From Candidatus Hatepunaea meridiana (GTDB lineage Bacteria > Electryoneota > AABM5-125-24 > Hatepunaeales > Hatepunaeaceae): a stretch of 64,000 nucleotides of DNA. The stretch is taken from assembly GCA_030765125.1 (NCBI GenBank), contig JAVCDD010000180.1:7033-71032 (forward strand), in the 5' to 3' direction. The position numbers and the translations under genes are program-made. This document shows, one piece after another, positions 1 to 23,961 of this stretch (its first letter is position 1; every line of letters begins with the position of its first letter). Below the pieces are notes generated by a model. That model had not been told where the DNA came from. It made no database searches and was given only the letters and a program-made list of their open reading frames with translations.

Positions 1-3000
1 ATACGGCGCGGGTCGGGATCTTCATCCAGTATTATATCCCCGATATCCTCAATGATTTCAGGTGGATCGTTGACCGGATTGATCACCAACCGGAAGTCCA
101 GATCGGTTGAAGCACCCGGTTCGTCGGTGGCTCGAATGGTAATTTCTACGCCGTCCGGGATATTGTAATTCGGTTCAGGTTCGAAATGCAGTACATTGAA
201 CTGGTCGACCTCCATATTCAACTCTTCTGGAGCGTCGATGACCGAAAAGTTCATTTCGTCTTCTTCTATATCGTAGAACACTTCGTCGAGGTCAGCCACG
301 TCAACCCGGTCAGGGTCTTCGTCAATCCTTATATTTTCAATCTGTTCGACAATCCGCGGTGCATCGTTGATGGCGTTAACGACGACTTCGAAGACGTCTT
401 CCGCCGTTTCTTCACCATCTGAAGCGGTGATCGTAACATCGACGTTCCCGTTCCAATCCGCTTCAGGCTGGACATAGAGCCTGCCCTGTACAATGCGAAT
501 ACTAAGCCCTTCAGCGTCGGACTCCTGGAACTCAAGATCGTCATCATCATCCGGGTCAACGAAGTGATCGTTCAGATCGGCAATTAGCCTTTCACCGTCG
601 TCCTCGTCAAATTCCTGATCGGGGATTTCCTCTACTAATATGGGTGGTTGATTTACGTGACCGACGGTAATATCAACCGTTGCGCGGGTCCTGCGACCTC
701 CCTGGTCACTTACTTCGAAGATCGGGCTGTATTCACCTTCATCATCAAGATCGGTCTGCCAGTTGAATGTGCCCGTGTTATCACCATTATCAGTGAATTC
801 CGCGCCGCGGTCTTCAGTTCCGTCGTCAACCAGCATTAACAGTTCCAGTTCGTCACCTTCAAACTCGATGTCAAAATCGTCAGCGGTCAGAGTGAATTCG
901 ATTTCATCGCCCTCATCAACATTTACCTCATCCAGCGGGTCAACCCAGAAGGGAGGGTCATTGACAGGGGTTATGGTAACCAGGAATACATCGTCAATGC
1001 TGTCATCACGGCGCGGGGAAGAAGAATTTTGGATTTTGGATTTTGAATGTTGAATGTCAGTAGCGTAAGCATTCCCGCTTGCGGAAACCATACACGCTGT
1101 TCGTAGCGCCGACGTCTTAACGGCATTACCGGAATTATAAGATGGTCTGAATACCATTAAGGCTCTACCGCCTTGATCATCGTCTGCTGTTACGGTTACT
1201 TCGAGATCATCACCGTTGAAATTCTCCGGAGCTTCCAACAGCAGCATATTATCATCGTCAATCTCTGCCGTAAGAGGTTCATCCGCTTCAACAGAGAATG
1301 ACAGATCATCGTCATCCGGGTCCTCGAATACCTCATCCAATACTGCGACTTCAAACTGACCGAAGTCCTCGGGTACACGCATATCCGCAATCGGGCTGAC
1401 TACCCGAGGTGGCTGGTTGATGTTGTTAACGGTGATATTAACCGTCAGATCATCGGTTCCATCATCTGTGTCGGTTACGCGGAAGACAGGGGTATAAGGA
1501 TCATCACGACTATCATCAGCGCCAGGCGTCCAGGTAAATTCTGCCGTGCCGTCGTCGTTATCAGCAAATTCCCATCCGTCAGGCAATTCACCTTCGTCGA
1601 ATACCGACCAGACCAGATCGTTGACATCATCTTCAACATCACTTGCCTGGAAGACGATATGGAGTTCTTCCTCTTCAGTAACATCAACGTCAATCTCATC
1701 GCCTAAAGCCTCGCCCTGATCGTCTTCGATAACAGGATCATCGTTAATCGAAAGGACGTTGATCGTGAATTCATCGGTAATTGATTCGTCTCTTCGAGGA
1801 GGAGAAGAATGTAGGATGAATTTTGAATGTTGAATGTTGAATGTTGAATGTTGATTATTGATTCGGGCGGCGATCATAATTCGCTGTCCCCAACTGTCCT
1901 CGGCTTCGATAATCACCTCTGATTCACCGAAGTAGTTCGGATCTGGTTCTACGGACAGGATGTGTGTTTCAATATCAATATTAGCGTTCAATTCTTGAAT
2001 CTCATTAGCTTCGATGATGTCAAACTCTAAATCATCACCATCCGGATCATCGAAAACATCGTCCAGGTCGGCGATTTCGATTACACCGGCGTCCTCGTCA
2101 ATATCTATATCGTCAATCGGATTTACAACTTCCGGAGGACGGTTGAAGTTGCCGACGGCGATGGTGATCTCCAGATCGACATCTTCCTCACCATCGGATA
2201 CCGTGAAGATTGGCGTATATTCACCTTCGTCTTCGAACGTTGTCTGCCAGGTAAAGCTTGCCGTACCGTGCTCGTTATCATTGAGTTCCGCTTCATCCGG
2301 CAGACCACCGCGGTCGCTGAATTCGATGGTCAGATCGTTGTTGTTGTCCACGTCATCCTGGGCAATAAGTTCGAAACGGGCAACGTTTCCTTCGTTTACC
2401 TCGTAACGATTGTCTTCAGGATAGCTCTCCCAGACCGGTGGATCGTTGAGCGGATTAACGGTAACAGTGAATTCATCGGATACGGTCTCGTCGCGGCGGG
2501 GTGGAGGGTTGAAATAGGGGGACAGTATACCTATTTCTGTTAATGGACCATCGTTCTTTTCAAGAGCACTCATGAAATAGGTATACTGTCCCCCTATTTC
2601 TGCGAGGCTTCGAGATGGCTGCACATTAACCATCAAACGCCCACCGTTCTCCTCATCATCTGCTGTCACGGTTACGATTAGATTCTCACCGTAAAAATCA
2701 TCCTCCGGTCTCAACGTCAGGATATTCTCATCGCTGATTTCCAGATTCAGTTCTTCAGTACCTTCCACCGAGAAAGTAAGATCGACGCCGTTCGGATCTA
2801 CGAAAATTTCATCCAGGTCGGCTACCTCCAACAGACCGGAATCTTCGTCGATTTCGACATCGTCAATCGGATTTACAACTTCGGGAGGATCGTTGATGGC
2901 TATGCCGGCGATATCAACCGTCAATTCAGCGTTGTCAGGATCGTTGGAGCTAATTGTTATTACGTCGCGGAACACACCGGCGTCTTCGGGAGCGAAGGTT

Positions 3001-6000
3001 ACAGTCAATTCATAGTTGTCTTCGGATTCAATAGTAAGTTCTTCGGCAAAGTCAAAACTGAAGTCCTCACCATCGGAAGTTATTTCGAATATTGTCAGGT
3101 CTCCATTGCCTTCGTTGCTTATGGTCAATATCAGTTCTTCGCTCTCGTGAATTGAAACGTTGCCAAAGTCCAGAACATTGGGGGATATGACAATTGCAGG
3201 ATGCGGGACAAAGTCTGTTACGTCAATGATTACCAAACCATTCTCACCGTCGGCGACGTATGCCATATCTCCCACGATCTGAACCCGTTTGGATAAGCCG
3301 TCTGTGTTATGGGCAGCAATCTCGCTCATATCTTCGGGGTCGGACACGTCGATAATTCCCAAGCCTTCCTCCCCGTCACAAACAAAGGCACTATTGCCTC
3401 GTACATCGATGCCCGTCGCTTCACCTTCGGTATCAAACGAGCCGACTTCAGCCGGATTTTCAGGATCGGATACATCGACCACAATAAGTCCATCATTCCA
3501 TTGTGCTACATAGGCGTAATCCCCGACGATAACGACATCCCAGGCTTGACCCGGAGTATCAAAGGATCCAATCTCATCCGGGTCCTCAGGATTGGAAACA
3601 TCGATAATACGAAGACCGCCTCCAGCAGCAGCTAAATATGCATAGTTCCCGTTAACGTCGACGCCTCGTGAATTACCCGGTGTTTCGACTGTGCTGATTT
3701 CATCAGGGTTCTCAGGGTCGGAAATGTCAATTATACTAAGTGCACTACTCCCTTGGCTCTCATCTGCTACATAGGCATAATCGCCCTCAACGCAGACATC
3801 CCAGGCATACATTTGCCACCTTTCGAGTGCGCCAACCTCTTCAGGGTTCTCAGGATCGGAAATATCGATTATGCGAAGCCCACTTCCGAAGTCCGCTACA
3901 TAAGCATAGTTTCCGATTACGAAGACCGCGCGAGATGTCCCTGGAGTATTGTAGAATCCGATTTCATCTGGGTTCTCCGGATCGGTTACGTCGATCATGC
4001 GAAGACCGCTGTTTCCATCTGCAACATATGCAAAGTCGTTTACAACAAAAATCCCCTGGGCATCTCCCGGTGTGTCGTAGGAGCCTACCTCGTCAATCTG
4101 CGGCTCCCGTCCTGTGCCGGTCAGGTCAACGGTCAGTTCATCGTTATTGGGATCGTCAGATGAAATGGTCATTGTGGCGGTGAAATCACCGGTTTCTTCA
4201 GGTATAAAGGAAACGATTAACTCGAAACTGCCTTCCGGTTCGATAACTAACTCGTCCTCGAAGTTGCTGCTGAAATAATTTTCATCAATTGAAATATCGG
4301 ATACGGTCAGGTCGGCGTTGCCTTCGTTGCCAATAGTGAGAATCAGATCACTCCGCTGGTGGACTGCCACTCCGCCGAAGTCCAGTGATGCCGGTGTTAC
4401 AGTAATACCTGCTTCCGGTTCTTGATGGAAGTAAAAAGCGCCCATATCCGCCTGTGTTTCATCAGGATCGTCCGGCGCGTCCGGATCACCGGAGTCGATG
4501 CAGGGGCTGTTGCGGGTCAGGGAATAATCATCATTGTCTATGTCCGCGAACAATGGATCGGAATCAATGTTCCCCGCTCCGGCGTATCCACCTTGAATAT
4601 CGGAGTAGGCGATGGTTAAACCAGCAGGAGTAGCTCCCGGTTGGTTACCCCAGAAGATCGAGTTCACGATTTGAGCGGAGGAGTTATCATAAGTATGAAT
4701 TCCACCATTGCCGGTCTCGCCGATGTTGCCGGTTATAGTTACGTTTATCAAAGTGGGATCGCTGTCGTGTGTGCTGTAGATAGCTCCACCCCAACGACGG
4801 GCGTTATTGCCCTGTATCAACAGATGATCCAGCGTCGGGGCAGCGTCATTGATGTATATTCCTCCGCCGTAGTTGGAATTTCCATTGCGGATAGTGAAGC
4901 CCATCAAGACCGCATCTACTCCAATTCCATCGCGCAAAGTAACCACACTGCCACCGGCGTTGCCGTCTATGATGGTCGATTCTATATAAGCCTGATCGCC
5001 GGTAGTCAATAACAGGCTGGCAACGACTATCTCCTTACCAATGAAGTTGATGCGTTCAGAATAGGTTCCGGAATGAACAAGCACGGTGTCACCGTTCTCG
5101 ACGGCGTTGATAGCCGCCTGGATGGTTCCATAGTCATCCGGGACGTTGAACAGATGCCTGCCGGGGATACCAATTCCGGTCAGTTCGATGGTGGTTACCC
5201 TTTCGTCAGGATCGTCCGAAATGAGGGTCATAAAGGCTTCAAAATCACCGATGTCGTCAGGTGTGAAGGTAACAGGCAGAGACGCCTGCCCTTCCGGTTG
5301 GATGACAATGGCGTTCTCGAAAGTCGGTACGAATGTCTCCGATCCGCGGATGGTAACTTCCGAGACGGTAAGATCGGCGGCGCCCTCGTTGCGGATAGTC
5401 AGGATCAGTTCTTCGCTGTCATCTATACTGACCTCGCCGAATTCCAGGATTTCCGGCTCAACGGCAATATCCGGAGCCACACCTGAACCGGTCAAGGTGA
5501 TTGTTATTTCATCCTCTTCAGGGTCGTTGGATGCTATGGTTATTATTCCCTCAAAATCGGCGACAGCATCCGGTGAGAAGGTGACGATCAGGTCGGTGTT
5601 GTCGTCGGGTTCAATATTGATTGCATCTTCAAAATCACTGTTGAAGTTGTCACCTTCAATTGTCACTTCGGATACGGTAAGAGGACCTTCGCCTTCGTTG
5701 CCGATGGTTAAATTCATCCGGGCATTATCATCGATTACAACTTCACCGAAGTCAAGATTGTACGTTGAAACTGTAATTGCCGGGTGCGGCATAAAGTCGG
5801 TCACGTTCAGGATGCGCAGTCCGCTGGCTCCATCAGCAACATAAGCGTGAGTTCCGATCACTGAAACATCGTAAGCCTCGTCAGGCGTGTTATAAGATGC
5901 GGTTTCACCAATATTTCCCAAGTCGGAAATGTCTATTACCTGCAGTCCACTCTCCATATCCGCAACGTAGGCGAATCTTCCCAAAACCGTTACGGCAACG

Positions 6001-9000
6001 GCGCGATCTGGCGTGTCAAGTTCACCGAGTTCTTCAATATTTTCGGGGTCGGATATATCGAGGATATGTAAACCACTCTCGTTGTCTGTAACGTAGGCGA
6101 TAGATTCGATGATGAATATTTCCGTTGCAATGTCGGGAGTATCGTAGCGTCCCGTTTCTTCGATATTCTCAGGATCGGAAATGTTCAATACTAACAATCC
6201 ATTAGCGCCGTCTGCTACGTAAGCATATTCACCAATGACTGTTACAGCGTGCGCCAATCCCTCTGTATTAAAGGATCCAACCTCGCTCGGATGCGCCCTG
6301 TTTGATATATTGACCACCCTCAGACCGCTCTCCATATCTGCTATATAAGCGATTGTGCCGACAACAGCGACATCAACGGCATTTCCGGGAGTGTCGAATT
6401 CACCTGTTGGATTGGGGTCTCCGGGATCAAAGACGTCTATGACTTGTAAGCCGTTTTCATCGGCGGCTACGAAAGCGTAGTCTTCCGACACAACAACGCT
6501 CATTGCGGTTCCGATATCACCGGCTGATGCGACCTCGTCAGGGTTCTCAGGGTCGGTTATGTCTATTACTCTTAAGCCTCCGTCACCATCTGCAACGAAA
6601 GCGAAATCTTCTATGACGGTAACTCCGTAAGCTGTTCCATCGGTGTCATAGTTTCCTACTTCGTCGATGTCCGGTTCGCGTCCGGCGCCGGATAACTGAA
6701 CAATTATTTCACCGTTTTCGGGATCGTTTGAGGTGATGGTTAATGTGCCTTCGAAATCACCTGCTTCTTGGGGGGCGAAGGTGACAGACAGGAATGTCTG
6801 TCCTACCGGGTCGATGACAATGGGGTCTTCGAAGCTGCTACTGAACCAGACTCCTTCAACGGTTACATCGGATACGGTTAAAGGACCGTCGCCTTCGTTG
6901 CTGATGGTGAGTCTTTGATCAATACTGCGTTCTATCTGTATAGCGCCGAAGTCCAGTTGTTCCGGTTCAACGACTATTATTGGAACTACGCCTGTGCCGG
7001 TTAATGCTATGGCTATTACCTCTTCATCCGGATCATCAGAGGATATGGTCAGTGTTGCTTCAAAATCACCTGATTCCTGTGGAGCGAAAGTAACGGTCAG
7101 ATCGAATTCCTCATCCGGTTGGATGACGAACGCTTCGTCGAAGTCGCTGCTGAAGTAATTCCCTTCAATTGCGATGTCAGAGACGTTCAATTCAACCAAA
7201 CCATCATTGCTTAATGTAAGCGTCAGATCAGCGCTCTCGCCTCCTGACACCTGACCGAAGTTCAATTCATTCGGATTAACCATTAGATTCGGTTCTTGCG
7301 CCTGGTGGTAGTAGAGTGCGCCCATATCGGCGCGGGTTTCGTCCGGGTCTTGATCGGCGTTGGGATCACCGGTGTCGACGCAGGGGCTGTTGCGCAAGAT
7401 TTGGTAGTCGCTGTTGTCTGCATCGGCAAATAAGGGATCTTCCTCGATGTTGCCTGCACCGGCATAGCTGCCTTCAATATCTGAGAAGGTGATCGTCATA
7501 CCGTTCTGCAGATCAGGCGGTTCGTTGCCCCATATAATAGAATTAATCACCTGAGCACTCGCTCCACCGCCGCCGATGCCAATAGCAGCGTTGTCGCTGT
7601 TTGCAGTGTTACCGGAGATGGTTACGTTGACGAGAATGGGAATGGAACCGCTGGTGGCGTATAGCCCACCGCCGCGTCCACTGGCGACGTTGTCGACTAT
7701 AGCGAGGTGATCGAGCGTGGGCGTGGTCTGATCGCCGTTGCAATAGATACCACCGCCCCAATCGGTGTCGGCATTTCTAACGGTAAAGCCGGTCAGGATT
7801 GCCGCTTCCGTTTCACCGTTGCGGAAGACGACCGTACTCCTGCCGTTTGCGCCGCCGTCAATTATGGTCGATTCGATGTATTCAGCCTCACCTGTGGTCA
7901 GGTACAGACTGCCGACGGTTACGTCTATGCCGTTGAAGTTGACGTTCTCTTCGTAGGTGCCGGGTTGAACCAGCACGATGTCACCGGCTATGGATACGTC
8001 GATTGCTTCCTGGATGGTTTCATAGTCATCCGGCACGTTGACGGTGCGCGCTTCGGTCTCTATACCGGTGCCACTCAAATCAACGGTTACTTCTCCTTCA
8101 TCGGGATCGTCGCTGGTTATGGTCAATACAGCTTGCAGATCGCCTGTTTCACCGGGCAAGAAGGTTACATTAACTTCAGAACTTTCGTCCGGTTGGATGA
8201 CAATGGGGTTTAAAAAGTCGCTGCTGTAGTAGGCGCCTGCAATCGTTATATCGGAGACGGTCAGTTCGATATTGCCTTCGTTAGAGATAGTTATGGCTAA
8301 CTGGGACGACCTGCCCATTTCAGTTTCAGGGAAGGCGAGGGCTTCGGGATCAACGGCGATGTCAGGTGTAAGTCCCGATCCGGTTAAGGGGATGTTTATC
8401 TCACCCTCATCGGGATCATTGGACGTTATGGTCAGCGTTCCTTCGAAATCACCGGTTTCATTCGGCTGGAAGTTTACGTTGAACTGCCGGTTGCCGTCCG
8501 GTGCAATTACGAATTCCTCCTCAAAGTCCGAGGAGAAATATTGACCTTCGATGGAAATATCCGAAACAGTAAGATCGGAATTTCCATCATTGGTGATTAT
8601 CAATGGCAGAGTGGATATTTGTCCCACCAGGCAGTCGCCAAATGGGAAGGAATTGCGGTTAACGGTAATATCCGGCGCCACGCCTGAACCGCTTAGCGCA
8701 ACCTCAACCTCCGGATCGTCCGGATCATCGGAAAGTATAGTCAGGGTTGCATCAAAATCGTTCACCTCTTCCGGCGCGAACGTAACGGTCAGCTCAAAGT
8801 CCTCAAACGGTTGGATGACGATTTCTTCATCAAAATCGGTCAGGAATGTCTGCGCTCCCCGGATTGAAATATCCGAAATGGTCAATTCCCAGTTGCCATC
8901 GTTGCTGATGGTTAACGTCAGGTCTTCAGTTTCACCGGTTACAACCTCACCGAAGTCGAACGCTTCGTCTGAAAGGGTGATTTCGGGGTATTGGACGAAG

Positions 9001-12000
9001 TCGGAGACGTCGAGGATTAATAAACCGTTATTCCCATCAGCCACATATGCATAGTTTCCTACAACAGAAACATCCCAAGAATGTTGAGTTCGGTGATTAC
9101 CAACCTCATCAGGATTCTCAGGATCTGAAACATCTATTAAACGTAGACTGCTTTGACCGGCGGGAGTAAAGCATGCAACATAAGCTATGTTACCTACAAC
9201 AGTTAAGTCTCGAGCATAATCACGTGTATCTTGAGATCCAACTTCGACCAATTCATCTGGGTTAGAAATATCAATAATTCTTAGACCTTCTGTATAATCT
9301 GCTACATAAGCATAGTTTTCTATGACTGAAACACCCAGAGCTGCACCTGGAGTATCATATATTCCTAATCCTCCAAGGTTACGAGCATTAATCAATATTA
9401 AACCTGTCTGATTATCTGCAACATAAGCGATCTCATCAACTATCACAACATCCCGTGCGATTTGCGGCGTGTTAAATGAACCGGTTAATCTTGGATCTTC
9501 AGGGTCGGATATGTTAATAGCTTGCAAACCGCTACGTCCATCAGCTATGTAAACATAATCTCCGCTGACCGCAATACCTTCTGCCCAATCAGGAGTATCA
9601 CAGCTTCCTATTTCATCAGGTTCCTCAGGATTAGACACATCAATAATACGGAGACCGCTCTCGTAATCCGCTACAAATGCCAAATTATCCGAAACCACCA
9701 CATCATAGGCATTTCCTGGAGTTTCACAGAAACCTATCTCATCTGGATTCTCTGGATCAGAGATATCTATTATCCGTAGACCCCCTGCATTATCTGCTAA
9801 ATAGGCAATATCCCCGACAATATCTATACCAAATGTTACACCATTAGTATTATAATGCCCCACTTCCGGTATCGCCGGTTCCCTGCCGACTCCCACCAAT
9901 GCAACATCCACTTCCCCATTATCCGGGTCGTCGGAAGTTATGGTCAGTGTCCCCTCGAAGTTGTTCTCGCTGTCCGGTGTGAACCGAACGGGTAGTTCGA
10001 AGGTGGCGTCCGGTTCGACGATCATCTCTTCATCGATATCCTCAAAGATACTGCTGAAGTTGTCGTGTCCGATTGATATATCGGATATGGTCAGGTCGCC
10101 GTCACCGTCGTTGCCGATGGTCAGGATGAGCTCGACGGTCTGGTCGATTACGACCTCGCCGAAGTTCAGCGATTCGGGATCATGCGTGAGGATAGGCGCA
10201 ACGCCCAGTCCGCTTAAGTTCACATCCAATTCTCCATTATCCGGATCATCGGATGTTATGGTCAGCGTTGCCTGCAGGTCTCCGGTCGCGTCAGGTGCAA
10301 AGGTTACGGTCAGTTCATAGGGCTCGTCCGGTTCGATGACGACCTCACCGTCGAAGTCGCTGGTGAAGTAGTCACCCGCGATTGATATGTCGGAAACGGT
10401 CAGAGGCGCGCGTCCCTCGTTGTTATCAATAGTGAGAATCATATCTGTCTCGTGACCGACTACCGTGTTGGGGAAGACAAGCTCTGCCGGTGTTACAGCG
10501 ATAACGGGAGCCGCTTCCTGGAAGAAGTAGAGGGCGCCCATATCGGCGCGCGTGGTGTCGGGGTCTTCGGGAGCGTCGGGATCGGCTGCGTCAACGCAGG
10601 GGCTGTCCTCAGTGATGTAGAAGTCGTTGTTGTCTGTGTCAGCGAAAATGGGATCGGAATCAAGGTTGTCTACTCCAGCGTAACCGCCCTCGATGTCGCA
10701 GTATGCAACGGTCAATCCGTTCGGCATTCCGGCGGGTTGGTTGCCCCAGACGATTGAGTTTCCGATAGTGGCTGAGGCGCCTGCAAAGATATTAATAGCG
10801 CCGACCTCTTCGTTTGCCGTGTTGCCGTAAAGGGTTATAAAGTTCAGATCAGGATTGGCGTTGTTGGTGGCGTAGATACCTCCACCGCGGCTGGTGGAGC
10901 TGTTTCCGTAGATTACCAGATGATCCAGCGTCGGGCTCGCGTCGTTGATATAGAGCCCACCGCCGAAGTCGGTTGAGCCGTTGCGAATGGTGAAGCCTAT
11001 CAGTTCCGCTTCGTCTGTCTCACCGTTGCGGAAGGCGACTACACTACGCCCGTTGTCGCCGCCGTCGATTATGGTTGAGGCTATGTCATCCGGATCGTCG
11101 CTCTCGATATATTGGCTGGCAACCGTGATGTTTTTGCCGCGGAAATTGATGTTCTCATTATAAACACCGGGGTCGACCAGAACGCGGTCGATGTCAATGG
11201 CTTCGTCAATGGCTGCCTGGATGGTCTCGAAGTCATCAGGGACGTTGTATTCGCGGGGCTGTGCTTCGATGCCGGTTCCTGACAGGGCAACAGCAAGCTC
11301 ACCGTTGTCGGGATCGTCTGAGGTGATGGTCATAGTGGCTTCGTGGTCACCGGTCTCGGTGGGGGAGAAAACGACAGACAGGAATGTCTGTCCTACCGGT
11401 TCTATGATTATTTCGTCTGTAAAGTCGCTGCTGAAATAATCCCCTTCAAAGGTTACGTCTGTAATGTACAGGTCTGTATCGCCGGTGTTGCTGATGGTTA
11501 TGACAGACAAGGATGTCCGTCCCACCTCAGTATCAGGGAATCCAATGGCTTCGGGGTCTATGGTGATTTCGGGGTATTCTACGATGCCGCCGGTAACTTC
11601 GGAACAGTTGAAGATGTAAAGCCCTTCATCCTCATCGGTGATATAGGCGTAATTGCCGGATACATACAAGCCGATAGCGTAGCCTGGAGTGTCGTGGAAA
11701 CCAATCTCTTCCGGTTCGGCAGGGTTTGAAACGTCTATCAAGCGCAATCCCTCGTCACCATCGGCAACATAAGCGAAATCATGCGCGACAAAGACGCTTT
11801 CGGATGAGCCGGGAGTGTTTACAAAGCCGACCTCTTCCGGTTCTGCGGGGTTTGATACGTTTATAATGCGAAGTCCACTGCCTGAAGCGGCGACATAAGC
11901 ATAGTCACCGGCTGCGAAAACTCCATAGGCACGACTCGGCATTTCGAGATTGCTCACTTCATCCGGATTTTCCGGGTCGGACACGTCGATTATGCGCAGT

Positions 12001-15000
12001 CCACCGGCTTGATCTGCAAGATAAGCGTAGTCACCTGAAACGTAAACTGAAAAAGCTTGACCGGGTGTGTCGAACGCTCCAATCTCATCGGGATCATCGG
12101 GGTTGGAGACATCAATTATACGCAGACCGCTGGCGCCGTCTGCAACGTAGGCAAGATTGTCTTTGTAATAAACAGCATACGCGGCACCCGGGGTGTCGAA
12201 GGTTCCGACCTCATTGGGATTTTCGGGGTCTGAGATGTCGATTATGCGCAGTCCGCTGGCAGCGTCCGCAACGTAAGCATACGAACCAGCAACGTCTATG
12301 CCGGTTGCTTCACCGGGGGTGTCGTAGGAACCGACAGCCTGCGGTTGACCGGGGTCGGATACGTCGACAATCTGCATACCTTCCCAGTAGTCAGCTATGT
12401 AAGCCAGCCCTCGCGAGACGTAGACGCCTTCGGACATTCCGGGCGTTTCGTAATGACCTACCTGCCGGATCTGCGGACCGGTTCCGATGCCGGTTAAATC
12501 AACTTCAATCTCCTCGTTTTGAGGGTCGTTGGAGGTGATGGTCAGTGTGCCAGCGTAATCGATTGTTTCTACAGGTGTAAATGTTACGGTCTGTTCGATG
12601 CTGTTGTCGGGTTCTATGGTGATTTCGTCCTCAAATACGGTTTGGAATACTTCGTCACCCTGAATGGTAATATCAGTGATGATAAGATCCTCATTTCCTA
12701 CATTGGTGATGGTGAGGATAAGATCGCGGTCAATGTCAATGGCAGACTCGCCGAAGTCGAGCGCACCCGGTGAGATCCTGATAGTCGGAGGCTGGGGTTG
12801 CTGTTGGTAGTAGAATGCGCCCATATCGGCACGTGTTTCATCGCTATCCTGGGGCGAGTTCGGATCACCGACGTCTATACAGGGGGAGTCTTCGGTCAGT
12901 TGGAAATCATCATTGTCAAAGTCGGCAAATAAGGGATCCTGATCGATGTTGCCGGCGCCGTTATAACCACCCTGAACGTCAGAATAGGTAATGGTTTGTC
13001 CACCAGGAAGCGCTGCCGGGGTGTTTCCCCAGAATATCGAGTTGACTGCCTGTGTTTGAGCGCCACCCCCTCCAACACCTATTCCGCCGTTACCGCCATC
13101 GGCGTCGTTGTTGGTGAATGTTATGTTATTCAGGAGCGGTTGCGCACCAGTGGTGACATAGATGCCTGCACCTCGTCCGCTGACGTGATTGCCTGTTATC
13201 AATAGATGATGCAATGTAGGATTAGCGCCACGGATGTAAGAGCCGCCGCCGAAGTCGGTATCTGCATTGCGGATTGTGAAGCCTGCGAGGACAGCTTCGT
13301 TTGTCTCACCGTTGCGGAAGACCGTTACGCTTCTGCCGTTGGCGTCACCGTCGATAATGGTCGAAGCGATGTAATCAGGATCACCGGTTGTGATATAGAG
13401 GCTGCCAACGACGATATTCTTACCAATAAAGTCAATGATCTCAGTATAGGTTTCAGGTTGAACCAGTACTGTGTCACCGTCAGCAGCGTTGTCGATTGCT
13501 TCCTGGATGGTGTCGTAGTCGTCCGGAACGTTGATTATAAAATCTCGTCCCGATCCGGAAAGAGCTACTGCGAGATCCTCGTTCTCAGGATCGTCAGATG
13601 CTATGGTAAGTGTTCCAACGAAATCATCAATGTCATCCGGTGAGAAGGTTACGGTTAATTCGCGACTTTCATTCGGTTGGATGACGATCTCATTCTCGAA
13701 ATCGCTGATGAAGTTGTCCCCTTCAATAGTTATATCGGATATAGTCAGATCACCGAAACCGGTGTTGCTGATAGTGAGTATCAGGTCTGCTTCGTCGTCA
13801 ATCGGAACAGCACCGAAGTCCAGGGCATCCGGAGATACGTCAATAGCGGGGATCGCTTCGACACCGATTCCGGTCAGGTTCACATCCAGGTTCTCGTTAT
13901 CCGGATCGTTAGATGTGATTACAAGCGTGCCGGCGAGATCACCGGTATCATCCGGCTGGAAGGTGACAGTTACATCAGAAGTGTTGCCCGGTTCGATGAC
14001 CACTTCATTCTCGAAATCTGAACTGAATATGTCTCCTTCAATAGTAATATCCGAGACATTCAGGTTTTCACGTCCTCTATTTCGGATGGTTAGAATCAGA
14101 TCGGCGCTCTGGTCGACTACTACCTCAGCAAAGTCAAGCGCTTCAGGAGAAACAACGATGCTCGGTCCCTCTGCCTGGAATAACGGGAATGTTCCCATAT
14201 CGGCGCGTGTGCCGTCCGGGTCTTCGGGTGCATCAGGATTGCCTGTATCTTTACAGGGGCTGTCATCGGTCAGGTGAAAATCATCATTGTCGGGATCAAC
14301 GAACAATGGATCTGTATCTATGTTGCCTCTGCCGTTATAACCGCCCTGGATATCAGAGAATGTGATCGTCTGGTTGGCGGGAATATCTGGTGGGGCATTA
14401 TCCCAGAATATGGAGTTTACAATAGTAACCACTGATCCACCGAAAACATCCAGAACACCGTTGTTTTGCTCAGAATCATTGCGGGTCAGGGTAACGTTTG
14501 TCATCGTAGGACTACCGCCGCCATAGGCAATTATCGCACCGCCCCATCTTACGGTATGGTTATCGGTGATCAATAAATGATCCAGTATCGGGCTGCCGCC
14601 ATTACAGAGTATTCCCCCTCCGAAATCAGCGGCGCCGTTGCGAATTGTAAAACCGGACAGGATGGAATTCACTGTCTCACCGTTGGCAAAGGTTACAACG
14701 CTAGTGTTATTAGCATCGCCATCGATTATGGTTGATTCAACGTAATCCGCATCACCTGTAGTAATAAACAGGCTGCCTACAATGATTTCCTTGCCGTTAA
14801 AGTTGATGTTTTCTGTGTATGTCCCGGGCGCTACCAAAACAGTATCCGTGTCGATGGCATTATCAATAGCTTCCTGTATAGTATCGAAATCATCAGGCAC
14901 ATCGTGTACATGATCGAGCGGTTCGATGCCAGTTCCAGTTAAAGCGACGTCAACTTCTTCTTCATTCGGGTCATCGGATGTAATAGTGAGCGTTCCCTGG

Positions 15001-18000
15001 TAATCTTCTATATCATCAGGTGCAAACGTTACCGTAACATCATAACTGTTGTCCGGTTCGATTACGATTTCATCTTCTTCGAAGTCGTGCGTGAAAACAT
15101 CACCTTCAATAGTGATGTCAGTTACGGTCAGATCGGTACGACCATTATTCCTGATTGTGAGCGACAGTTCAGCGCTCAATTCAAGCTCAACCTCTCCAAA
15201 GATAAGTTGAGCCGGTATTACCGATATGTTTGGCTCTTCCGGCAGCTCGAAGTAGAAGGCGCCCATATCATTGCGTGTTTCGTCAGGATCCTGTGGTGAA
15301 TTCGGATCACCTGCATTTATACAAGGGGAGTCTTCAGTTAATTGGAAATCATCATTATCAAAGTCGGCAAATAAGGGATCGGAATCAAGATTCCCTGCTC
15401 CGGCGTATCCACCCTGAACATCGGAATATGTAATAGTCTGACCGCCAGGAAGCGCTGCAGGTGTGTTTCCCCAGAATATCGAGTTGATTACCTGGGTTTG
15501 AGCGCCGCCCCCACCGACTCCGATTCCACCGTTGGCACCGTCGGCATCGTTGTTGGTGAATGTTATGTTATTCAGGAGCGGTTGTGCTCCGGTAGTGGCA
15601 TAAATCCCTGCGCCGCGTCCGCTGACATGGTTGGCGGTTATTAATAGGTGGTGCAATGTTGGACTGGCGTCACGGATGTATGAGCCGCCTCCGAAGTCGG
15701 TATCTGCATTGCGAATTGTGAAACCGGCAAGGACGGCTTCGTTTGTCTCGCCGTTGCGGAAGACCGTTACGCTTCTGCCGTTGGCGTCACCATCAATAAT
15801 GGTCGAAGCGATATAGTCGGGATCACCTGTGGTGATATACAAACTGCCGACAACGATGTTCTTGCCAATAAAGTCAATGATTTCAGTATAGGTCTCAGGT
15901 TGAACCAGCACCGTGTCGCCGTCAACAGCGTTGTCGATTGCTTCCTGAATGGTATCGTAGTCATCCGGAACATTGATTATGTAATCCCGTCCCGATCCTG
16001 AAAGAGCAACAGCGAGATCCTCGTTCTCCGGATCGTTAGATGCTATGGTTAACGTTCCATTAAAATCACCAACGTCATCCGGTGAGAAGGTCACATTTAA
16101 TTCATAGCTGTCATCCGGTTCGATTACAACCTCATTCTCGAAATCGCTGATGAAATTGTCACCTTCAATGGTTACATCGGATATAGTCAGATCACCGAAG
16201 CCGGTGTTGCTGATGGTTAGTATCAAGCCTGCCTCGTCGTCAACCGGAATTGCTCCAAAGTCCAGCGCATCCGGCAATACTACTATTGCAGGAATCGCTT
16301 CGACACCGATTCCGGTCAGGTTCACCTCCAGATCTTCATTGTCCGGATCGTTGGATGTGATTACAAGCGTACCAGCGAAATCTCCGGTAGCATTCGGCTG
16401 GAAGGTAACGATTACTTCAGAAGTGTTGCCTGGCTCGATGACTACTGCATTCTCAAAATTGCTGCGGAAGTTATCCCCCTCAATTGTTATATCGGATACC
16501 CTTAAGTCTTCACGTCCTCTATTTCGGATGGTGAGCGTCAGATCAGCGCCCTGGTCGACTACTACCTCAGCAAAGTCGAGAGCTTCAGGGGAAACAACGA
16601 TACTTGGTCCTTCAACCTGGAACAGCGGGAATGTTCCCATATCAGCGCGTGTGCCGTCCGGGTCTTCGGGTGCATCAGGATTGCCTGTGTCTTTACAGGG
16701 ACTGTCATCGGTCAGGTGAAAATCATCATTGTCGGGGTCAACGAACAATGGGTCTGTATCTATATTGCCTCTGCCGTTATAACCGCCCTGAATGTCGGAG
16801 AAGGTGATTGTTTGGTTAGCCGGTATATCAGGTGGGTCGTTATCCCAGAATATGGAGTTTACAATAGTAACCACTGATCCACCGAAAACATCCAGAGTGC
16901 CGCTATTTTGCTCGGAATCATTACCGGTCAGGGTAACGTTTCTCATCGTAGGACTACCGCCGCCATACGCAATTATCGCACCGCCCCATCTGACGGAATG
17001 GTTGTCGGTGATCAATAAATGATCCAGCATCGGGCTACCGCCATTACAGAGTATTCCCGCTCCGAAGTTAGCACCGCCATTGCGGATAGTAAAACCTGAC
17101 AGGACGGAATTCACTGTCTCACCGTTGGCAAAAGTTACTACGCTCGTGATATTCCCATCACCGTCAATAATTGTTGATTCGACGAAATCTGCATTACCTG
17201 TTGTAATAAATTGACTGCCGACGACGATTTCCTTGCCGCCAAAGTTGATGTTTTCAGTATAAGTTCCGGGCGCTACCAACACAGTATCCGTATCGATGGC
17301 GTTATCGATGGCTTCCTGAATGGTATCGTAGTCGTCGGGAACGTTGATCCTGAAACTTCTCCCGATTCCAGAAAGAGCGACAGCCAACTCTTCGTTCTCC
17401 GGATCATCTGATGCAATAGTAAGTGTCCCATTAAAATCACCTACGTCATCAGGAGAGAATGTAACCGTTAATTCATAACTGTCATCCGGTTCGATTACAA
17501 CCTCATTCTCAAAGTCGCTGCTGAAGTTATCGCCTTCAAAGGTAACGTCCGAAACGGTCAGGTCACCGAAACCCACGTTGGCGATAGTGAGTATCAGATC
17601 CGCATCGCCGTTAACCACTACCGCACCGAAGTCCAAAGCATCTGGAAATGGATCAATAGAAGGGATAGCTTCCACGCCGATTCCTGTCAGATTAACCTCC
17701 AATTCCTCGTTATCCGGATCATTGGATGTAATTACAAGCGTTCCGTTAAAATCACCTGTATCATCAGGCTGGAAAGTGACAGTTACTTCATAAGTGTTGC
17801 CCGGCTCGATGTCCACTTCATTATCAAAATCGCTTCTGAAGATGTTCCCCTCAATCGTTATATCAGATACATTTAAGTCTTCGCGTCCCCTGTTTCTGAT
17901 AGTGAGCGTTAGATCGGCACTCTGGTCGACTACAACCTCAGCAAAGTCAAGCGCTTCAGGAGAAACAACGATACTTGGTCCCTCTGCCTGGAATAGTGGG

Positions 18001-19862
18001 AATGTTCCCATATCGGCGCGTGTGCCGTCCGGGTCTTCTGGGGAGTCAGGATCACCTGTATCGATACAGGGGCTGTCGTCAGTCAGGTGATAATCATTAT
18101 TGTCGGGATCGGCAAATAAAGGATCCGTGTCGATGTTGCCTGCACCTGCATACCCACCCTGGACATCGGAGTAGGTAATCGTTTGATTGGCTGGTATATC
18201 GGGTGGATCGTTATCCCAGAAAATCGAGTTAACCATATTAACAACTGCACCGCTGAAAATGCTCAAAGCTCCGTTGCCTTGATCGGCGCTATTGCCTGTT
18301 AAGGTGATGTTTCGTATAGTAGGGCGGGCGTTGGCGTAAGCAATTATTCCTCCGCCTCGATTGACGGCGTTGTTGCCGGTTATCAGGAGATGATCCAGCG
18401 TCGGGGCAGAACCATTACAGAGTATTCCCGCTCCGAAGTTAGCCCTGCCATTGAAGATAGTAAAACCTGACAGGATGGAGTTCACTGTCTCACCGTTGGC
18501 AAAGGTTACTACACTCGTGTTATTCGCATCGCCGTCAATAATAGTTGATTCAACATAATCCGCATCACCCGTTGTAATAAAAAGGCTGCCGACAAGGATT
18601 TCCTTGCCGCTAAAGTTAATATTCTCCGTGTAAGTTCCGGGAGCAACCAGTACAGTATCCGTATCAAGCGCATTATCAATAGCTTCTTGTATAGTATCAT
18701 AATCATCCGGCACGTCTATTCTGTGATCGCGGGGTTCTACGCCCGTTCCTGTTAAAGCAACGTCAAGTTCTTCCTGGTCCGGGTCGTCGGAGGTAATAAT
18801 TAGCGTTCCCTGATAATCCTGCGTTTCCTCAGGGGCAAAGGTTACAATTACATCATAACTGTTATCCGGGTCGATAACTACTTCATCTTCTTCAAAGTCA
18901 TGCGTGAAACCATCTTCATGAATGGTAATATCCATTACAGTCAAGTCGGTGCGTCCAATATTGCTTATAGTAAGAGTTAATTCAGCGTTTTGTTCAAGCT
19001 CAACATCCCCAAAGTTAAGCTCAGCCGGTGACACGGCAATATTCGGTTCTTCCGGCTGATCGAAGTAGAACGCGCCCATATCGGCGCGTGTCTCGTCGGG
19101 ATCATCGTCTGAATTGGGGTCTCCGGTGTCAATACAGGGGGAGTTCTCTGTGATGTAAAAATCACCTTCACCAGGATCGACAAACAACGGATCCTGGTTG
19201 ATGTTTCCATTACCGGCATAACCACCCTGGATGTCGGAATATGTAACGGTCATCCCATTGGGTCTTCCGGCGGGTTGGTTGCCATAGGATATGCAGTTGA
19301 CCATATTAGCCGAGGCGCCGCCGTAGACATGAATTCCCCCATTGCCGCCTTCAGCCGTATTGTTGGCAATCGTAATGTTGGTCAAACTGGGAAGAGCGTC
19401 GCTGGTGCAATAGATGCCACCTCCCCACCTGGCAGCGTGGTTTCCGGTAATGAGCAGATGATCCAGCGTCGGTCGAGCGTTGTTAATGTATAGTCCACCA
19501 CCGTAATTTGCCGAACCGTTTGTGATCGTAAGACCAATCAACCGCGCTTCCGCGCCTACACCACCGCGAATTGAAACAATAGTACCACCACCACCGCCAT
19601 CGATGATAGTATTTTCGATGTGCTCCGGATCGTTTTCGTTCAGGTAGAGACTGGCAACGGTGATTTCCTTATCCAGGAAATTGATGTTTTCAACGTATCT
19701 ACCGGGCTGAATCAGCACGACATCGCCGTCTTCAGCTTCGATTATCGCTTCCTGAATGGTTTCAAAGTCGTCAGGAACGTTTATCACCTCAGCGTAAACG
19801 GTTGATACACCTGTGATTATTGCAAGTATAAAAGTAATAATTAGAGGAAATTTAGGACGCAT
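1..19862 (-). CDS. Giant secreted multidomain surface protein; N-terminus complete, C-terminus beyond the left window edge (>=6620 codons)
   Basis: Absent from the ORF track, which appears to list only ORFs with a stop in the window. The ATG is at 19862-19860 on the minus strand, followed by the signal-like peptide [24 protein letters not shown]. I hand-translated 1-2700 codon by codon and read through the rest. The nine V-P-D-D module starts (first bases 19778, 18713, 17342, 15971, 14900, 13529, 11243, 8036, 5144) and the RRD codons at 2498 and 1796 all share one phase (coordinate mod 3 = 2). A stop in that phase would have produced a listed ORF starting at 19862, and none is listed. Confidence 0.85.
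   Translation of the reverse strand, partial: [6620 protein letters not shown]
1026..1060 (-). repeat. Heptanucleotide tandem repeat (TGGATTT)2(TGAATGT)2, in frame in the giant ORF
   Basis: Units attttgg (1026-1032, 1033-1039), attttga (1040-1046), atgttga (1047-1053) and atgtcag (1054-1060). Verified translation is ...[22 protein letters not shown]. Confidence 0.8.
1817..1865 (-). repeat. Heptanucleotide tandem repeat (TGAATGT)4 plus degenerate flanking units, in frame in the giant ORF
   Basis: Perfect units lie at 1824-1830, 1831-1837, 1838-1844 and 1845-1851. Degenerate units are tgaattt (1817-1823), tgattat (1852-1858) and tgattcg (1859-1865). The stretch translates on the minus strand as [28 protein letters not shown]. 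Confidence 0.85.
2511..2600 (-). mobile_element. 90-bp palindromic element (family A, GGGGACAGTATACC core) lying in frame inside the giant ORF
   Basis: The perfect 27-bp arms are gaaatagggggacagtatacctatttc (2511-2537) and its reverse complement (2574-2600). The arms are identical to the intergenic copy at 23858-23944. The 36-nt loop resembles that copy's loop in inverted orientation. Codon-by-codon translation gives [31 protein letters not shown] with no stop. Confidence 0.75.
3215..4110 (-). repeat. LVIVD-repeat beta-propeller block 4
   Basis: Repeats such as [25 protein letters not shown] and [25 protein letters not shown]. Confidence 0.7.
5795..6685 (-). repeat. LVIVD-repeat beta-propeller block 3
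   Basis: Repeats such as [24 protein letters not shown] and [23 protein letters not shown]. Confidence 0.7.
6783..6809 (-). repeat. REP-like 27-mer (GTAG head + GACAGACA/TGTCTGTC hairpin) inside the giant ORF
   Basis: The plus strand reads gacagacaggaatgtctgtcctaccgg. The minus strand reads ccGGTAGGACAGACATTCCTGTCTGTC and codes PVGQTFLSV within an Ig-like domain. It is identical to 11373-11399 and near-identical to intergenic copies at 35287, 35349 and 56611. Confidence 0.8.
9000..9885 (-). repeat. LVIVD-repeat beta-propeller block 2
   Basis: Repeats such as [25 protein letters not shown] and [25 protein letters not shown]. Confidence 0.7.
11373..11399 (-). repeat. Second identical copy of the REP-like 27-mer inside the giant ORF
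   Basis: Same 27-mer as 6783-6809, coding [15 protein letters not shown]. A degenerate relative, gacagacaaggatgtccgtcccacc, lies at 11501-11525. Confidence 0.8.
11600..12475 (-). repeat. LVIVD-repeat beta-propeller block 1
   Basis: Translation shows about 7 repeats of the form AYVAD..[24 protein letters not shown], matching my memory of the PF08309 LVIVD consensus. Confidence 0.7.
12465..17348 (-). repeat. Tandem duplication, two units of 2442 bp (beta-helix + 2 Ig + beta-helix + 1 Ig) inside the giant ORF
   Basis: Module starts 17342/14900 and 15971/13529 are each exactly 2442 bp apart. A 60-nt stretch I compared (16981-17040 vs 14539-14598) matches at 55/60. The antisense shadow ORFs 13531..14277 and 16150..16719 have near-identical translations. 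Confidence 0.8.
17349..18719 (-). repeat. Partial third copy (1371-bp sub-unit: beta-helix + 2 Ig) of the tandem repeat
   Basis: The module start at 18713 lies 1371 bp from 17342. The shadow ORF 17794..18090 is near-identical in translation to the corresponding parts of 16150..16719 and 13531..14277. Confidence 0.7.
19794..19862 (-). other. Predicted signal peptide of the giant ORF
   Basis: Translation [32 protein letters not shown] has a basic N-terminus, a hydrophobic core and a VYA-type cleavage motif. No predictor was run. Confidence 0.55.
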
Positions 19863-19927: not shown

Positions 19928-20002
19928 AACAGCATTATAATTTAACTCTAAACCAGGTTCAAAGTCAAGTCTTTTCATAAGATGAAAATAGAAACTGAAA
20001 TC

Positions 20003-20704: not shown

Positions 20705-20724
20705 TGTGTTTTCCTTGATAATAA

Positions 20725-21824: not shown

Positions 21825-21847
21825 TTGGGGTTTGGGTTTAGCGTGGT

Positions 21848-21918: not shown

Positions 21919-21922
21919 TACT

Positions 21923-23830: not shown

Positions 23831-23857
23831 TATCTTTACTCCTAAGATGGGATTGAT

Positions 23858-23944: not shown

Positions 23945-23961
23945 CACTTTGTGGTGAGATA

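What the first reader, a model, noticed from the sequence alone, without database searches (positions are those of the whole stretch)
1..19862. Unlisted ORF of at least 6620 codons with nine beta-helix modules and four LVIVD propellers in one polypeptide
The largest gene in the window is invisible in the supplied ORF track because it has no stop inside the window. The track shows only Ser-rich antisense shadows there. All eleven phase checkpoints I tested across 18 kb are in one frame.

Nine complete DUF1565/pectate-lyase-like beta-helix modules, each normally a stand-alone domain, strung together with about 21 Ig-like domains, four 7-bladed-looking LVIVD blocks and cadherin-like repeats make a very unusual architecture. 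Whether it ends in a T9SS CTD cannot be seen.
Basis: seen in the sequence. Interest (0 to 1): 0.7.

Follow-up and report, generated by a model that had tools for sequence, protein, structure and literature searches.

The report
Giant T9SS-anchored modular surface protein gene
The window's left third is one real 20.7-kb gene for a 6,901-residue secreted surface protein of an uncultured Antarctic-lake bacterium; it is the largest complete member of a small family of giant surface proteins that probably act as adhesins, already deposited in GenBank but never studied.

Summary
The minus-strand frame is open from 19904 to the window edge. ATG is at 19862 with a Sec signal peptide, giving 6,620 codons in the window. 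There are nine ~250-aa right-handed beta-helix modules, 21 choice-of-anchor-D Ig domains, four blocks of 7 LVIVD repeats (modelled as a 7-bladed propeller) and a Big_9/cadherin-like tail.

The missing end was recovered. The public protein MDP8239314.1 (6,901 aa, Ca. Hatepunaea meridiana, phylum Electryoneota, Ace Lake) is identical over all 6,620 residues. It ends 281 aa later in a T9SS type A sorting domain (TIGR04183, 44 bits).

Mis-assembly is unlikely:
- the longest exact repeat is 57 nt;
- the internal 2.3-kb duplicate has dS 0.73 and dN/dS 0.10;
- there is one signal peptide and one CTD;
- an independent complete 5,585-aa orthologue has the same domain order.

The architecture is rare but not unique: five family members rank among the top 150 hits in 1.84 billion cluster representatives, and another protein carries 16 tandem beta-helices.

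The most likely function is a multivalent, LPS-anchored adhesin or particle-capture fibre. Catalysis by the beta-helices is not excluded but lacks a conserved active-site set.

It is a new member of a known kind, of modest interest.

The parts
1..19862 (-). In-window part of the giant CDS: codons 1-6620 occupy 19862..3, and bases 2-1 begin codon 6621. The full gene has 6,901 codons; its stop lies about 846 nt beyond the left edge of the window.
   Evidence: open frame, ATG. (P0264, 6,901 aa, 0 mismatches over 6,620 aa).
19934..19962 (-). Sigma-70-like promoter match (TTGAAC-17-TATAAT), about 72 nt upstream of the ATG. It sits in a 457-nt intergenic region after the small upstream ORF that ends near 20320.
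   Evidence: This is a consensus match only; function is not shown.
19791..19862 (-). Sec signal peptide, aa 1-24 (MRPKFPLIITFILAIITGVSTVYA), the most hydrophobic 19-residue stretch in the protein.
19047..19793 (-). Beta-helix module 1 (aa 24-272). Modelled as a right-handed parallel beta-helix.
17979..18725 (-). Beta-helix module 2 (aa 380-628).
16608..17357 (-). Beta-helix module 3 (aa 836-1085).
15234..15986 (-). Beta-helix module 4 (aa 1293-1543).
14166..14915 (-). Beta-helix module 5 (aa 1650-1899).
12789..13544 (-). Beta-helix module 6 (aa 2107-2358).
10509..11255 (-). Beta-helix module 7 (aa 2870-3118).
7293..8051 (-). Beta-helix module 8 (aa 3938-4190).
4413..5159 (-). Beta-helix module 9 (aa 4902-5150).
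2904..19046 (-). Span holding the 21 choice-of-anchor-D (ASH/HYDIN-like) Ig domains of about 100 aa each. Coordinates: 18747-19046; 17682-17978; 17367-17663; 16311-16607; 15996-16292; 14934-15233; 13869-14165; 13554-13850; 12489-12788; 11277-11573; 10209-10508; 9891-10196; 8688-8987; 8379-8675; 8070-8366; 6996-7292; 6687-6983; 5487-5783; 5175-5474; 4116-4412; 2904-3200.
   Evidence: 21 hits. (PF22544, 12+9 stretches). (NF012200, 465 and 397 bits against a cut-off of 45). (coordinates).
11574..12488 (-). LVIVD block 1 (aa 2459-2763): 7 repeats, modelled as a 7-bladed beta-propeller.
   Evidence: 7 stretches, 254 bits. (pLDDT 93.5, 28 strands). (TM 0.82 to 7-bladed WD40 propellers).
8988..9890 (-). 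LVIVD block 2 (aa 3325-3625).
5784..6686 (-). LVIVD block 3 (aa 4393-4693).
3201..4115 (-). LVIVD block 4 (aa 5250-5554).
3..2903 (-). Acidic tail of Big_9 / cadherin-like / tandem-95 domains (aa 5654-6620). Eight complete units start at NDPP/NRPP/NQPP-type motifs. The ninth is cut by the window edge. Outside the window follow the rest of that unit, a beta domain of about 120 aa, and the T9SS CTD (aa 6817-6901).
12807..17564 (-). Internal tandem duplication of a BH-Ig-BH-Ig-Ig super-unit. Copy A is 15249-17564 and copy B is 12807-15134, with a period of 2,442 nt. The copies are 84% identical in DNA and 87% in protein.
   Evidence: (dN 0.075, dS 0.73, dN/dS 0.10).

Best explanation
What it is: one genuine 20.7-kb gene of Ca. 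Hatepunaea meridiana (candidate phylum Electryoneota, FCB superphylum; anoxic zone of saline Ace Lake). It encodes a 6,901-aa, very acidic, almost lysine-free modular surface protein.

Steps shown:
- An uninterrupted frame.
- One N-terminal Sec signal peptide.
- 9 short right-handed beta-helices, 21 choice-of-anchor-D Ig domains and 4 seven-bladed LVIVD propellers, arranged in a fixed syntax (BH-Ig(-Ig) units, then LVIVD-Ig-...-BH units).
- A ~1,250-aa C-terminal region: about 1,040 aa of Big_9/cadherin-like domains, a ~120-aa beta domain and one C-terminal T9SS type A sorting domain.

Steps inferred from what is established for T9SS type A cargo in Porphyromonas gingivalis:
- The protein crosses the inner membrane by Sec.
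- The T9SS translocon recognises it through the CTD.
- The PorU sortase removes the CTD and links the new C-terminus to anionic LPS.
- The cadherin-like stalk would therefore sit next to the outer membrane. The beta-helix/Ig/propeller array would project outward as a fibre of roughly 150-200 nm.

Most likely role: a multivalent adhesin or capture fibre. Its beta-helix and propeller modules would bind polymers, particles or other cells, and the Ig domains would act as spacers. It sits in a cluster of other T9SS cargo, including two C25 (gingipain-family) peptidases, so it may hold substrate near surface proteases. Module number varies between orthologues through tandem duplication.
For: The gene is real:
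- 0 stops in 6,634 codons, against 403-611 in the other frames.
- Codon-position GC pattern like the neighbouring genes.
- Internal duplicate under purifying selection, dN/dS 0.10 at dS 0.73.

Full length and CTD:
- P0264 / MDP8239314.1 is identical over 6,620 aa.
- PF18962 scores 39.9 bits (cut-off 27) and TIGR04183 scores 44.1 bits (cut-off 23) at the extreme C-terminus.
- Only one CTD is found, and the signal peptide is the most hydrophobic stretch.

Folds:
- The BH model has pLDDT 94 and is a right-handed beta-helix.
- The LVIVD model has pLDDT 93.5 and 7 x 4 strands.

Binding rather than catalysis:
- Across the 9 paralogues and 36 homologues, conserved polar residues lie in the two caps and in an Asn/Thr ladder.
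- No conserved Lys, Arg, His or Glu lies on the helix body.
- No CAZy-type family hit was found; Pfam matches are marginal.
- All other domain types are 'choice-of-anchor', cadherin-like or Big surface-protein modules.

Context:
- Five more Por_Secre_tail proteins lie within the 64 kb, two of them C25 peptidases.
- The MAG's published analysis points to protein rather than polysaccharide degradation (PMC9324843).

Family:
- Orthologues share the syntax and carry a near-identical CTD. Two are complete: 5,585 aa and 2,829 aa.

T9SS processing model: PMC8545088 and PMC12421860 (abstracts).
Against: - No experimental data exist for any family member.
- T9SS machinery genes were not seen, because the rest of the MAG could not be read.
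- The closest structural neighbours of the beta-helix are mostly enzymes: the PL31, PL9 and PL6 lyases, the AlgE4 epimerase and phage depolymerases. Catalysis therefore cannot be ruled out.
- Two independent short assemblies both break at window 19408, inside the gene. The locus is hard to assemble, and no read-level validation was possible.
- The ligand is unknown.
Confidence: 0.6

Rival explanations
1. A multi-catalytic polysaccharide depolymerase. The nine beta-helix modules would be active lyase-, hydrolase- or epimerase-like domains strung on one surface-anchored chain, with the propellers and Ig domains as carbohydrate-binding or spacer modules.
For: - The N-terminal cap motif IQxAI...GDT(V/I)xVxPGxY is shared with NosD and DUF1565-type proteins.
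- Stand-alone homologues of the module are common small T9SS cargo proteins.
Against: - No conserved basic or acidic catalytic constellation lies on the helix body across paralogues and homologues.
- The semi-conserved Lys of 'GKEI' is missing from module 8.
- There is no sequence-level match to any solved enzyme.
- Pfam hits are marginal and generic.
- The MAG was reported to have very few polysaccharide-degrading genes (PMC9324843).
- Non-enzymatic adhesins (PfbA, pertactin, Vag8, Rhombotarget A) also appear among the structural neighbours.
Confidence: 0.2
2. A structural cell-envelope coat, such as an S-layer-like or capsule-organising sheath, rather than an adhesin. It would be a highly acidic, Ca2+-binding, LPS-linked polymer mesh that protects the cell in saline, sulfidic water.
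For: - Extreme acidity (D+E 20%) with K at 0.3%.
- Cadherin-like and Big_9 Ca2+-binding-type repeats.
- The small orthologue P0297 sits inside an LPS/O-antigen biosynthesis cluster.
- The MAG encodes poly-gamma-glutamate capsule synthesis (PMC9324843).
Against: - A 6,901-aa single-copy fibre is an inefficient lattice subunit.
- Module number varies between orthologues, as in adhesins.
- No S-layer-type domains were detected.
Confidence: 0.1
3. An assembly artefact: several shorter paralogous beta-helix/Ig genes wrongly joined, or a repeat copy number wrongly expanded or collapsed.
For: - The gene is internally repetitive, with repeat families at 60-87% DNA identity.
- Two independent short contigs that are identical to the window both end at 19408, inside the gene.
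- Most relatives in databases are contig-truncated.
Against: - No stop or frameshift in 20.7 kb.
- The longest exact repeat is only 57 nt, and there is no repeat near 19408.
- The duplicates have diverged to dS 0.73 under purifying selection.
- There is exactly one signal peptide and one CTD, at the two ends.
- An independently assembled complete 5,585-aa orthologue, and three partial ones, keep the same domain order.
Confidence: 0.05
4. A SprB-like gliding-motility adhesin, propelled along the cell surface by the T9SS/gliding motor.
For: From my own knowledge: its size and secretion route resemble SprB of Flavobacterium johnsoniae (6,497 aa, T9SS-dependent).
Against: - The CTD is type A (TIGR04183). 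No type B CTD appeared in the NCBIfam scan of the tail, and no SprB repeats appeared in the family scans, although the Pfam lists for the two large pieces show only the 25 best of 35-40 families.
- The organism carries flagellar genes (PMC9324843).
- No gld genes are visible in the window.
Confidence: 0.05

Closest known systems
T9SS type A cargo proteins of the FCB superphylum (for example gingipains and other CTD proteins of Porphyromonas gingivalis)
   Same: - An N-terminal Sec signal and a C-terminal TIGR04183/PF18962 beta-sandwich sorting domain.
- It is clustered with other CTD proteins, including C25 peptidases.
   Different: - It is 5-10 times larger than typical cargo.
- Its domain content (beta-helix + choice-of-anchor D + LVIVD + Big_9) is uncharacterised.
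- The host phylum (Electryoneota) has no experimentally studied T9SS.
SprB, the giant T9SS-secreted gliding adhesin of Flavobacterium johnsoniae (own knowledge)
   Same: A repetitive cell-surface protein of similar size (about 6,500-6,900 aa) exported by T9SS.
   Different: - SprB uses a type B CTD and SprB repeats. This protein has a type A CTD, and no SprB repeats were detected.
- There is no evidence for gliding.
Orthologous giant 'choice-of-anchor D' proteins in FCB MAGs: P0415 (5,585 aa, Logan), MCF7810989.1, NQT34250.1, NQU05967.1 (Calditrichota), P0297 (2,829 aa)
   Same: - The same BH-Ig-LVIVD syntax and the same Big_9 tail.
- A near-identical CTD ending ...KVMLIR.
- The same lysine depletion.
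   Different: - The window's protein is the longest. It carries extra BH-Ig(-Ig) units from a tandem duplication and a fourth LVIVD unit.
- Identity to P0415 is about 49-56%.
Pectin-lyase-fold beta-helix proteins (PL31 alginate lyase 6kfn, Pel9A 1ru4, AlgE4 2pyg, phage tailspikes; adhesins PfbA 3zpp and pertactin)
   Different: - Only 9-20% identity.
- No sequence-level match.
- No conserved catalytic residues.
- The helix is short (~250 aa) and used as a repeated module.
Giant bacterial genes surveyed by West-Roberts et al. 2023 (bioRxiv 10.1101/2023.11.21.568195)
   Same: Large, repetitive, extracellular, adhesion-implicated proteins from uncultured bacteria. They are often fragmented in assemblies.
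   Different: - That survey concerns genes of at least 25 kb. They come mainly from Omnitrophota and lie next to type II secretion system-like loci.
- This gene is 20.7 kb, T9SS-linked and from Electryoneota.

Membership tests
T9SS type A cargo | C-terminal type A sorting domain (TIGR04183 / PF18962) at the extreme C-terminus | tested here: met
   The domain lies outside the window but on the identical full-length protein P0264. TIGR04183 scores 44.1 bits (cut-off 23) and PF18962 scores 39.9 bits (cut-off 27), covering about the last 77 residues (aa ~6822-6898 of 6,901). Only a single CTD is present.
T9SS type A cargo | N-terminal Sec signal peptide | tested here: met
   MRPKFPLIITFILAIITGVSTVYA|EV. 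It is the most hydrophobic 19-residue stretch in the protein. This was judged by inspection; no dedicated predictor was run.
T9SS type A cargo | The host encodes the T9SS machinery (SprA/Sov, PorK/L/M/N, PorU/V) | not testable with these tools
   The source contig and MAG could not be retrieved. Indirect support: five other CTD proteins lie in the window.
choice-of-anchor D domain proteins (NF012200) | Match to NF012200 above the curated cut-off | tested here: met
   465.2 and 397.4 bits against a cut-off of 45, with 12 + 9 stretches. This is also NCBI's own name for the protein.
LVIVD repeat / choice-of-anchor B propellers (PF08309, TIGR04312) | Tandem LVIVD repeats that form a beta-propeller | tested here: met
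   PF08309 scores 254 bits with 7 stretches in block 1. TIGR04312 scores 174.5 bits against a cut-off of 100 in the C-terminal half. The AF2 model has 28 strands, that is 7 blades, at pLDDT 93.5, with TM 0.82 to 7-bladed propellers.
DUF1565 (PF07602) | Match to the family profile | tested here: inconclusive
   Only 3 of the 9 modules match at E <= 0.01 (best 1.4e-4). Module 1 does not match.
Polysaccharide lyases / pectin-lyase-fold enzymes | Right-handed parallel beta-helix fold | tested here: met
Polysaccharide lyases / pectin-lyase-fold enzymes | Conserved catalytic base (Lys/Arg/Tyr-His) and Ca2+ or acidic ligands on the helix face; family-level sequence signature | tested here: not met
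   No conserved K, R, H or E lies on the helix body in the 45 aligned sequences. There is no significant sequence match to any solved lyase. A residue-level superposition on a lyase active site was not done.
SprB-type gliding adhesins | SprB repeats and a type B CTD (TIGR04131) | tested here: not met
   No type B CTD appears in the NCBIfam scan of the tail, and the CTD is type A. No SprB repeat appears in the NCBIfam scans (complete lists) or among the 25 best Pfam families shown for each half of the protein (which lists only 25 of 35-40 families).
Giant genes sensu West-Roberts et al. 2023 | Gene length of at least 25 kb | tested here: not met
   6,901 codons is 20.7 kb. The threshold is as quoted in the paper's introduction.

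The most novel reading that the evidence does not exclude
The nine beta-helix modules would represent an unrecognised, lysine-free family of polysaccharide- or glycoprotein-active domains. The protein would then be a surface-tethered 'processing line': it captures detrital particles or prey cells with its propellers and cadherin-like domains, and holds them against the co-encoded giant C25 peptidases. Its own near-absence of Lys would protect it from Lys-specific gingipain-type cleavage.
Probability: 0.12. Interest if true: 0.6.

Novelty: new member of a known kind. Interest (0 to 1): 0.3.

Why it matters
- It documents a complete 6,901-aa T9SS cargo protein in a candidate phylum (Electryoneota) known only from MAGs. 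It also defines a small conserved family whose module number changes by tandem duplication.
- This extends the size range and domain repertoire seen for T9SS type A cargo. The published metabolic reconstruction of this organism does not mention T9SS, adhesins or giant genes in its main text.
- It is a practical reminder that edge-truncated ORFs can hide the largest gene of a contig.
- It does not reveal a new mechanism or settle an open question.

Tried and rejected
- The source contig could not be fetched. Exact-protein look-ups of a neighbour and of the giant itself found no record. The radical-SAM neighbour gave only two short contigs.
- A metagenome scan with the last 400 in-window residues found nothing.
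That tool also seems to list only proteins up to about 1.75 times the query length, so the first two searches could not return the giant.
- The genome-contig scan returned only a 52%-identical, contig-truncated orthologue (L003) and a 29%-identical relative (L004).
- Sequence search of the beta-helix profile against the PDB gave nothing significant.
- Lysine depletion as something special to this locus was rejected. Homologous secreted repeat proteins generally have a median of 1.2-1.5% Lys, and a third have under 1%.
- Counting 'stretches' in the representative search as module numbers was rejected. Longer single helices fragment into several hits, so only hits covering at least 80% of the profile were counted.
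Full report
**1. Observation**

On the minus strand, one frame is open from 19904 to base 3. That is 6,634 sense codons without a stop, while the other two minus frames contain 403 and 611 stops over the same 20.4 kb.

The first start codon is the ATG at 19862. It is followed by MRPKFPLIITFILAIITGVSTVYA|EVINVP, a classical Sec signal peptide.

The ORF tool does not list ORFs that run off an end. This explains why only plus-strand shadows appear there, four of the six being 23-25% Ser. A sigma-70-like promoter match lies about 72 nt upstream.

**2. Anatomy**

A phmmer self-scan finds nine ~250-aa modules (49-60% identical to module 1) and 21 ~100-aa Ig-like domains. It leaves four ~300-aa gaps and a 967-aa tail.

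- **Ig domains.** Pfam and NCBIfam identify them as HYDIN/ASH-type 'choice-of-anchor D' domains. NF012200 scores 465 and 397 bits against a cut-off of 45.
- **Gaps.** They are blocks of seven LVIVD repeats, also matching choice-of-anchor B.
- **Tail.** It consists of Big_9, Cadherin_4/5 and tandem-95 units.
- **Domain order.** BH-Ig-BH-Ig-Ig-BH-Ig-Ig-BH-Ig-BH-Ig-Ig-BH-Ig-LV-Ig-BH-Ig-Ig-LV-Ig-Ig-Ig-BH-Ig-Ig-LV-Ig-Ig-BH-Ig-LV-Ig-tail.
- **Beta-helix model.** An AlphaFold model of module 1 (45-sequence alignment) is a confident right-handed parallel beta-helix with pLDDT 94.1.
- **Propeller model.** LVIVD block 1 models as 28 strands, that is seven four-stranded blades, with pLDDT 93.5. It matches 7-bladed propellers at TM 0.82.

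The 'DUF1565' label is only weakly supported: PF07602 hits 3 of 9 modules (best E 1.4e-4) and PF13229 hits 4 of 9.

**3. Source and the missing end**

Exact look-ups place the neighbouring proteins in a GenBank MAG of Candidatus Hatepunaea meridiana, on a 74,618-bp contig. This is a member of candidate phylum Electryoneota (FCB superphylum). It was described from the anoxic zone of Ace Lake, Antarctica (PMC9324843).

A profile of the nine beta-helix modules was searched against 1.84 billion cluster representatives. The top hit was P0264 (6,901 aa).

- Its first 6,620 residues are identical to the window translation.
- It is MDP8239314.1, 'choice-of-anchor D domain-containing protein'.
- The 281 residues beyond the window complete a Big_9 unit and add a ~120-aa beta domain.
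- The protein ends in a T9SS type A sorting domain: PF18962 at 39.9 bits and TIGR04183 at 44.1 bits.

A CTD profile built from the window's other cargo proteins finds this single CTD and no internal one. The signal peptide is the most hydrophobic stretch in the protein, and no other comparably long hydrophobic run was found.

**4. Is it an assembly artefact?**

The gene is repetitive, but the copies are diverged.

- Repeat families are 60-87% identical in DNA.
- The largest repeat is a tandem duplication of a BH-Ig-BH-Ig-Ig super-unit, at 84% identity over 2.3 kb.
- The longest exact repeat is 57 nt.
- The duplicate pair shows dN 0.075, dS 0.73 and dN/dS 0.10. It is therefore an old duplication under purifying selection.
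- An independently assembled, complete 5,585-aa orthologue (P0415, Logan) has a signal peptide, the same domain syntax and a near-identical CTD.
- Three contig-truncated relatives and a complete 2,829-aa relative share the syntax.

One caution remains. Two independent short contigs that are 100% identical to the window both stop at exactly 19408, which is 455 nt into the gene. No repeat in the window explains this. Read-level validation was not possible.

**5. Function**

The window holds five further T9SS-CTD proteins:

- a 1,113-aa beta-helix protein;
- a 1,052-aa protein;
- a 4,817-aa choice-of-anchor D protein;
- two ~1,800-aa C25 peptidases.

Several results argue against catalysis:

- There is no sequence-level link to any solved protein.
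- Across the nine paralogues and 36 homologues, the conserved polar residues sit in the two caps and in an Asn/Thr ladder.
- No conserved Lys, Arg, His or Glu lies on the helix body.

The LVIVD propeller is distantly related in sequence to a Sphingobium phosphotriesterase propeller (E 6.8e-9) but is otherwise generic. LVIVD repeats were first described in archaeal and bacterial cell-surface proteins (PMC2447325).

My best reading is a Sec- and T9SS-exported, LPS-anchored, multivalent adhesin or capture fibre. The processing steps are inferred from P. gingivalis (PMC8545088). I put about 0.9 on 'real single T9SS surface protein' and about 0.55-0.6 on 'binding rather than catalysis'.

**6. Comparison and novelty**

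Giant repetitive surface adhesins, including T9SS-secreted ones such as SprB (own knowledge), are well known. So are giant genes in uncultured bacteria (10.1101/2023.11.21.568195).

This protein is not SprB-like in sequence: it has a type A CTD and no SprB repeats were detected. It also falls below that survey's 25-kb threshold.

The BH-Ig-LVIVD architecture is rare. Only five proteins among the 150 best of 126,452 hits combine all three module types. It is not unique, however: another protein strings 16 of these helices together (P0277). Stand-alone BH+CTD proteins of ~400 aa are common in FCB MAGs. The gene is already deposited with an automatic name.

I rate it a new member of a known kind, with interest 0.3.

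**7. Composition**

The protein has D+E at 20% and only 18 Lys in the 6,620 in-window residues. Eight of those Lys are the 'GK(E/N)I' of the helix modules.

All T9SS cargo proteins in the window are Lys-poor (0.3-2.0%), whereas the cytoplasmic neighbours have 4-9%. Homologous secreted repeat proteins elsewhere are also Lys-poor, with a median of 1.2-1.5%. This is therefore a class trend rather than a peculiarity of this locus.

Noticed in passing
window 19408 (inside the giant gene); loci L001 and L002: Two independent short contigs (ENA ERZ27315452 k141_196848 and JGI 3300025649 Ga0208279_1014975) are 100% identical to the window. Both terminate at exactly window position 19408, which is 455 nt into the gene. 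No exact repeat of 16 nt or more nearby in the window explains the common break. Strain microdiversity, or a repeat elsewhere in the genome, is possible.
   Followed up: partly
window 27068-30409, 31069-34227, 35641-50094, 51070-56562, 56819-62233: The window is a T9SS cargo island. Five further proteins end in Por_Secre_tail. They include a second giant (4,817 aa) with 12 choice-of-anchor-D Ig domains separated by ~400-aa stretches that have no family match.
   Followed up: partly
window 51070-56562 (+) and 56819-62233 (+): Two adjacent, paralogous C25 (gingipain-family) peptidases of about 1,800 aa. Each has a propeptide/catalytic domain, a CarboxypepD_reg domain and a T9SS CTD, which is far larger than the classical gingipain catalytic unit. 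The TTG-start version of the second is not in the public collection as such, so GenBank probably uses another start.
   Followed up: no
all T9SS cargo ORFs versus cytoplasmic ORFs of the window: Strong lysine depletion and acidity in every secreted protein (K 0.3-2.0%, D+E 14-20%), against K 4-9% in the cytoplasmic neighbours. Homologues elsewhere show the same tendency, with median K of 1.2-1.5%. Salt adaptation of exposed proteins, Ca2+ binding, or protection from co-secreted Lys/Arg-specific C25 proteases are untested explanations.
   Followed up: partly
window 20320-25176 (-): Upstream on the same strand lies a small redox/Fe-S cluster. It holds an MrpORP-type P-loop Fe-S carrier with a Nitro_FeMo-Co domain (23962-25176), an Oxidored_FMN + Pyr_redox_2 oxidoreductase (21923-23830) and a radical SAM/SPASM protein (20784-21824). 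An unscanned ORF of about 127 aa (about 20320-20703) looks NifX/NifB-like by eye. It is unrelated to the giant gene as far as can be seen.
   Followed up: no
locus L005 (GCA_964355675.1, CAYHEC010000010.1), gene at 10001-18490: The smallest complete family member (P0297, 2,829 aa, BH-Ig-Ig-LV-Ig-Ig-BH-Ig + tail + CTD) is embedded in an LPS/O-antigen-type cluster. The cluster has Wzm/Wzt ABC transporter genes, glycosyltransferases and sugar-nucleotide enzymes. This is intriguing because type A T9SS cargo is attached to LPS.
   Followed up: no
protein P0277 (5,014 aa, from a 6.45-Mb contig): A protein made of 16 tandem full-length copies of the same beta-helix module type, with no Ig or LVIVD domains and a CTD-like C-terminus. 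This shows that concatenation of this module arose more than once.
   Followed up: no
window 62583-63731 (-): A 382-aa ORF with no Pfam match. Its 90%-identity cluster is otherwise populated by 48-54-aa fragments seen on many ENA contigs (one of them on 120 contigs). It may be a widespread short conserved segment or an artefact of the clustering.
   Followed up: no
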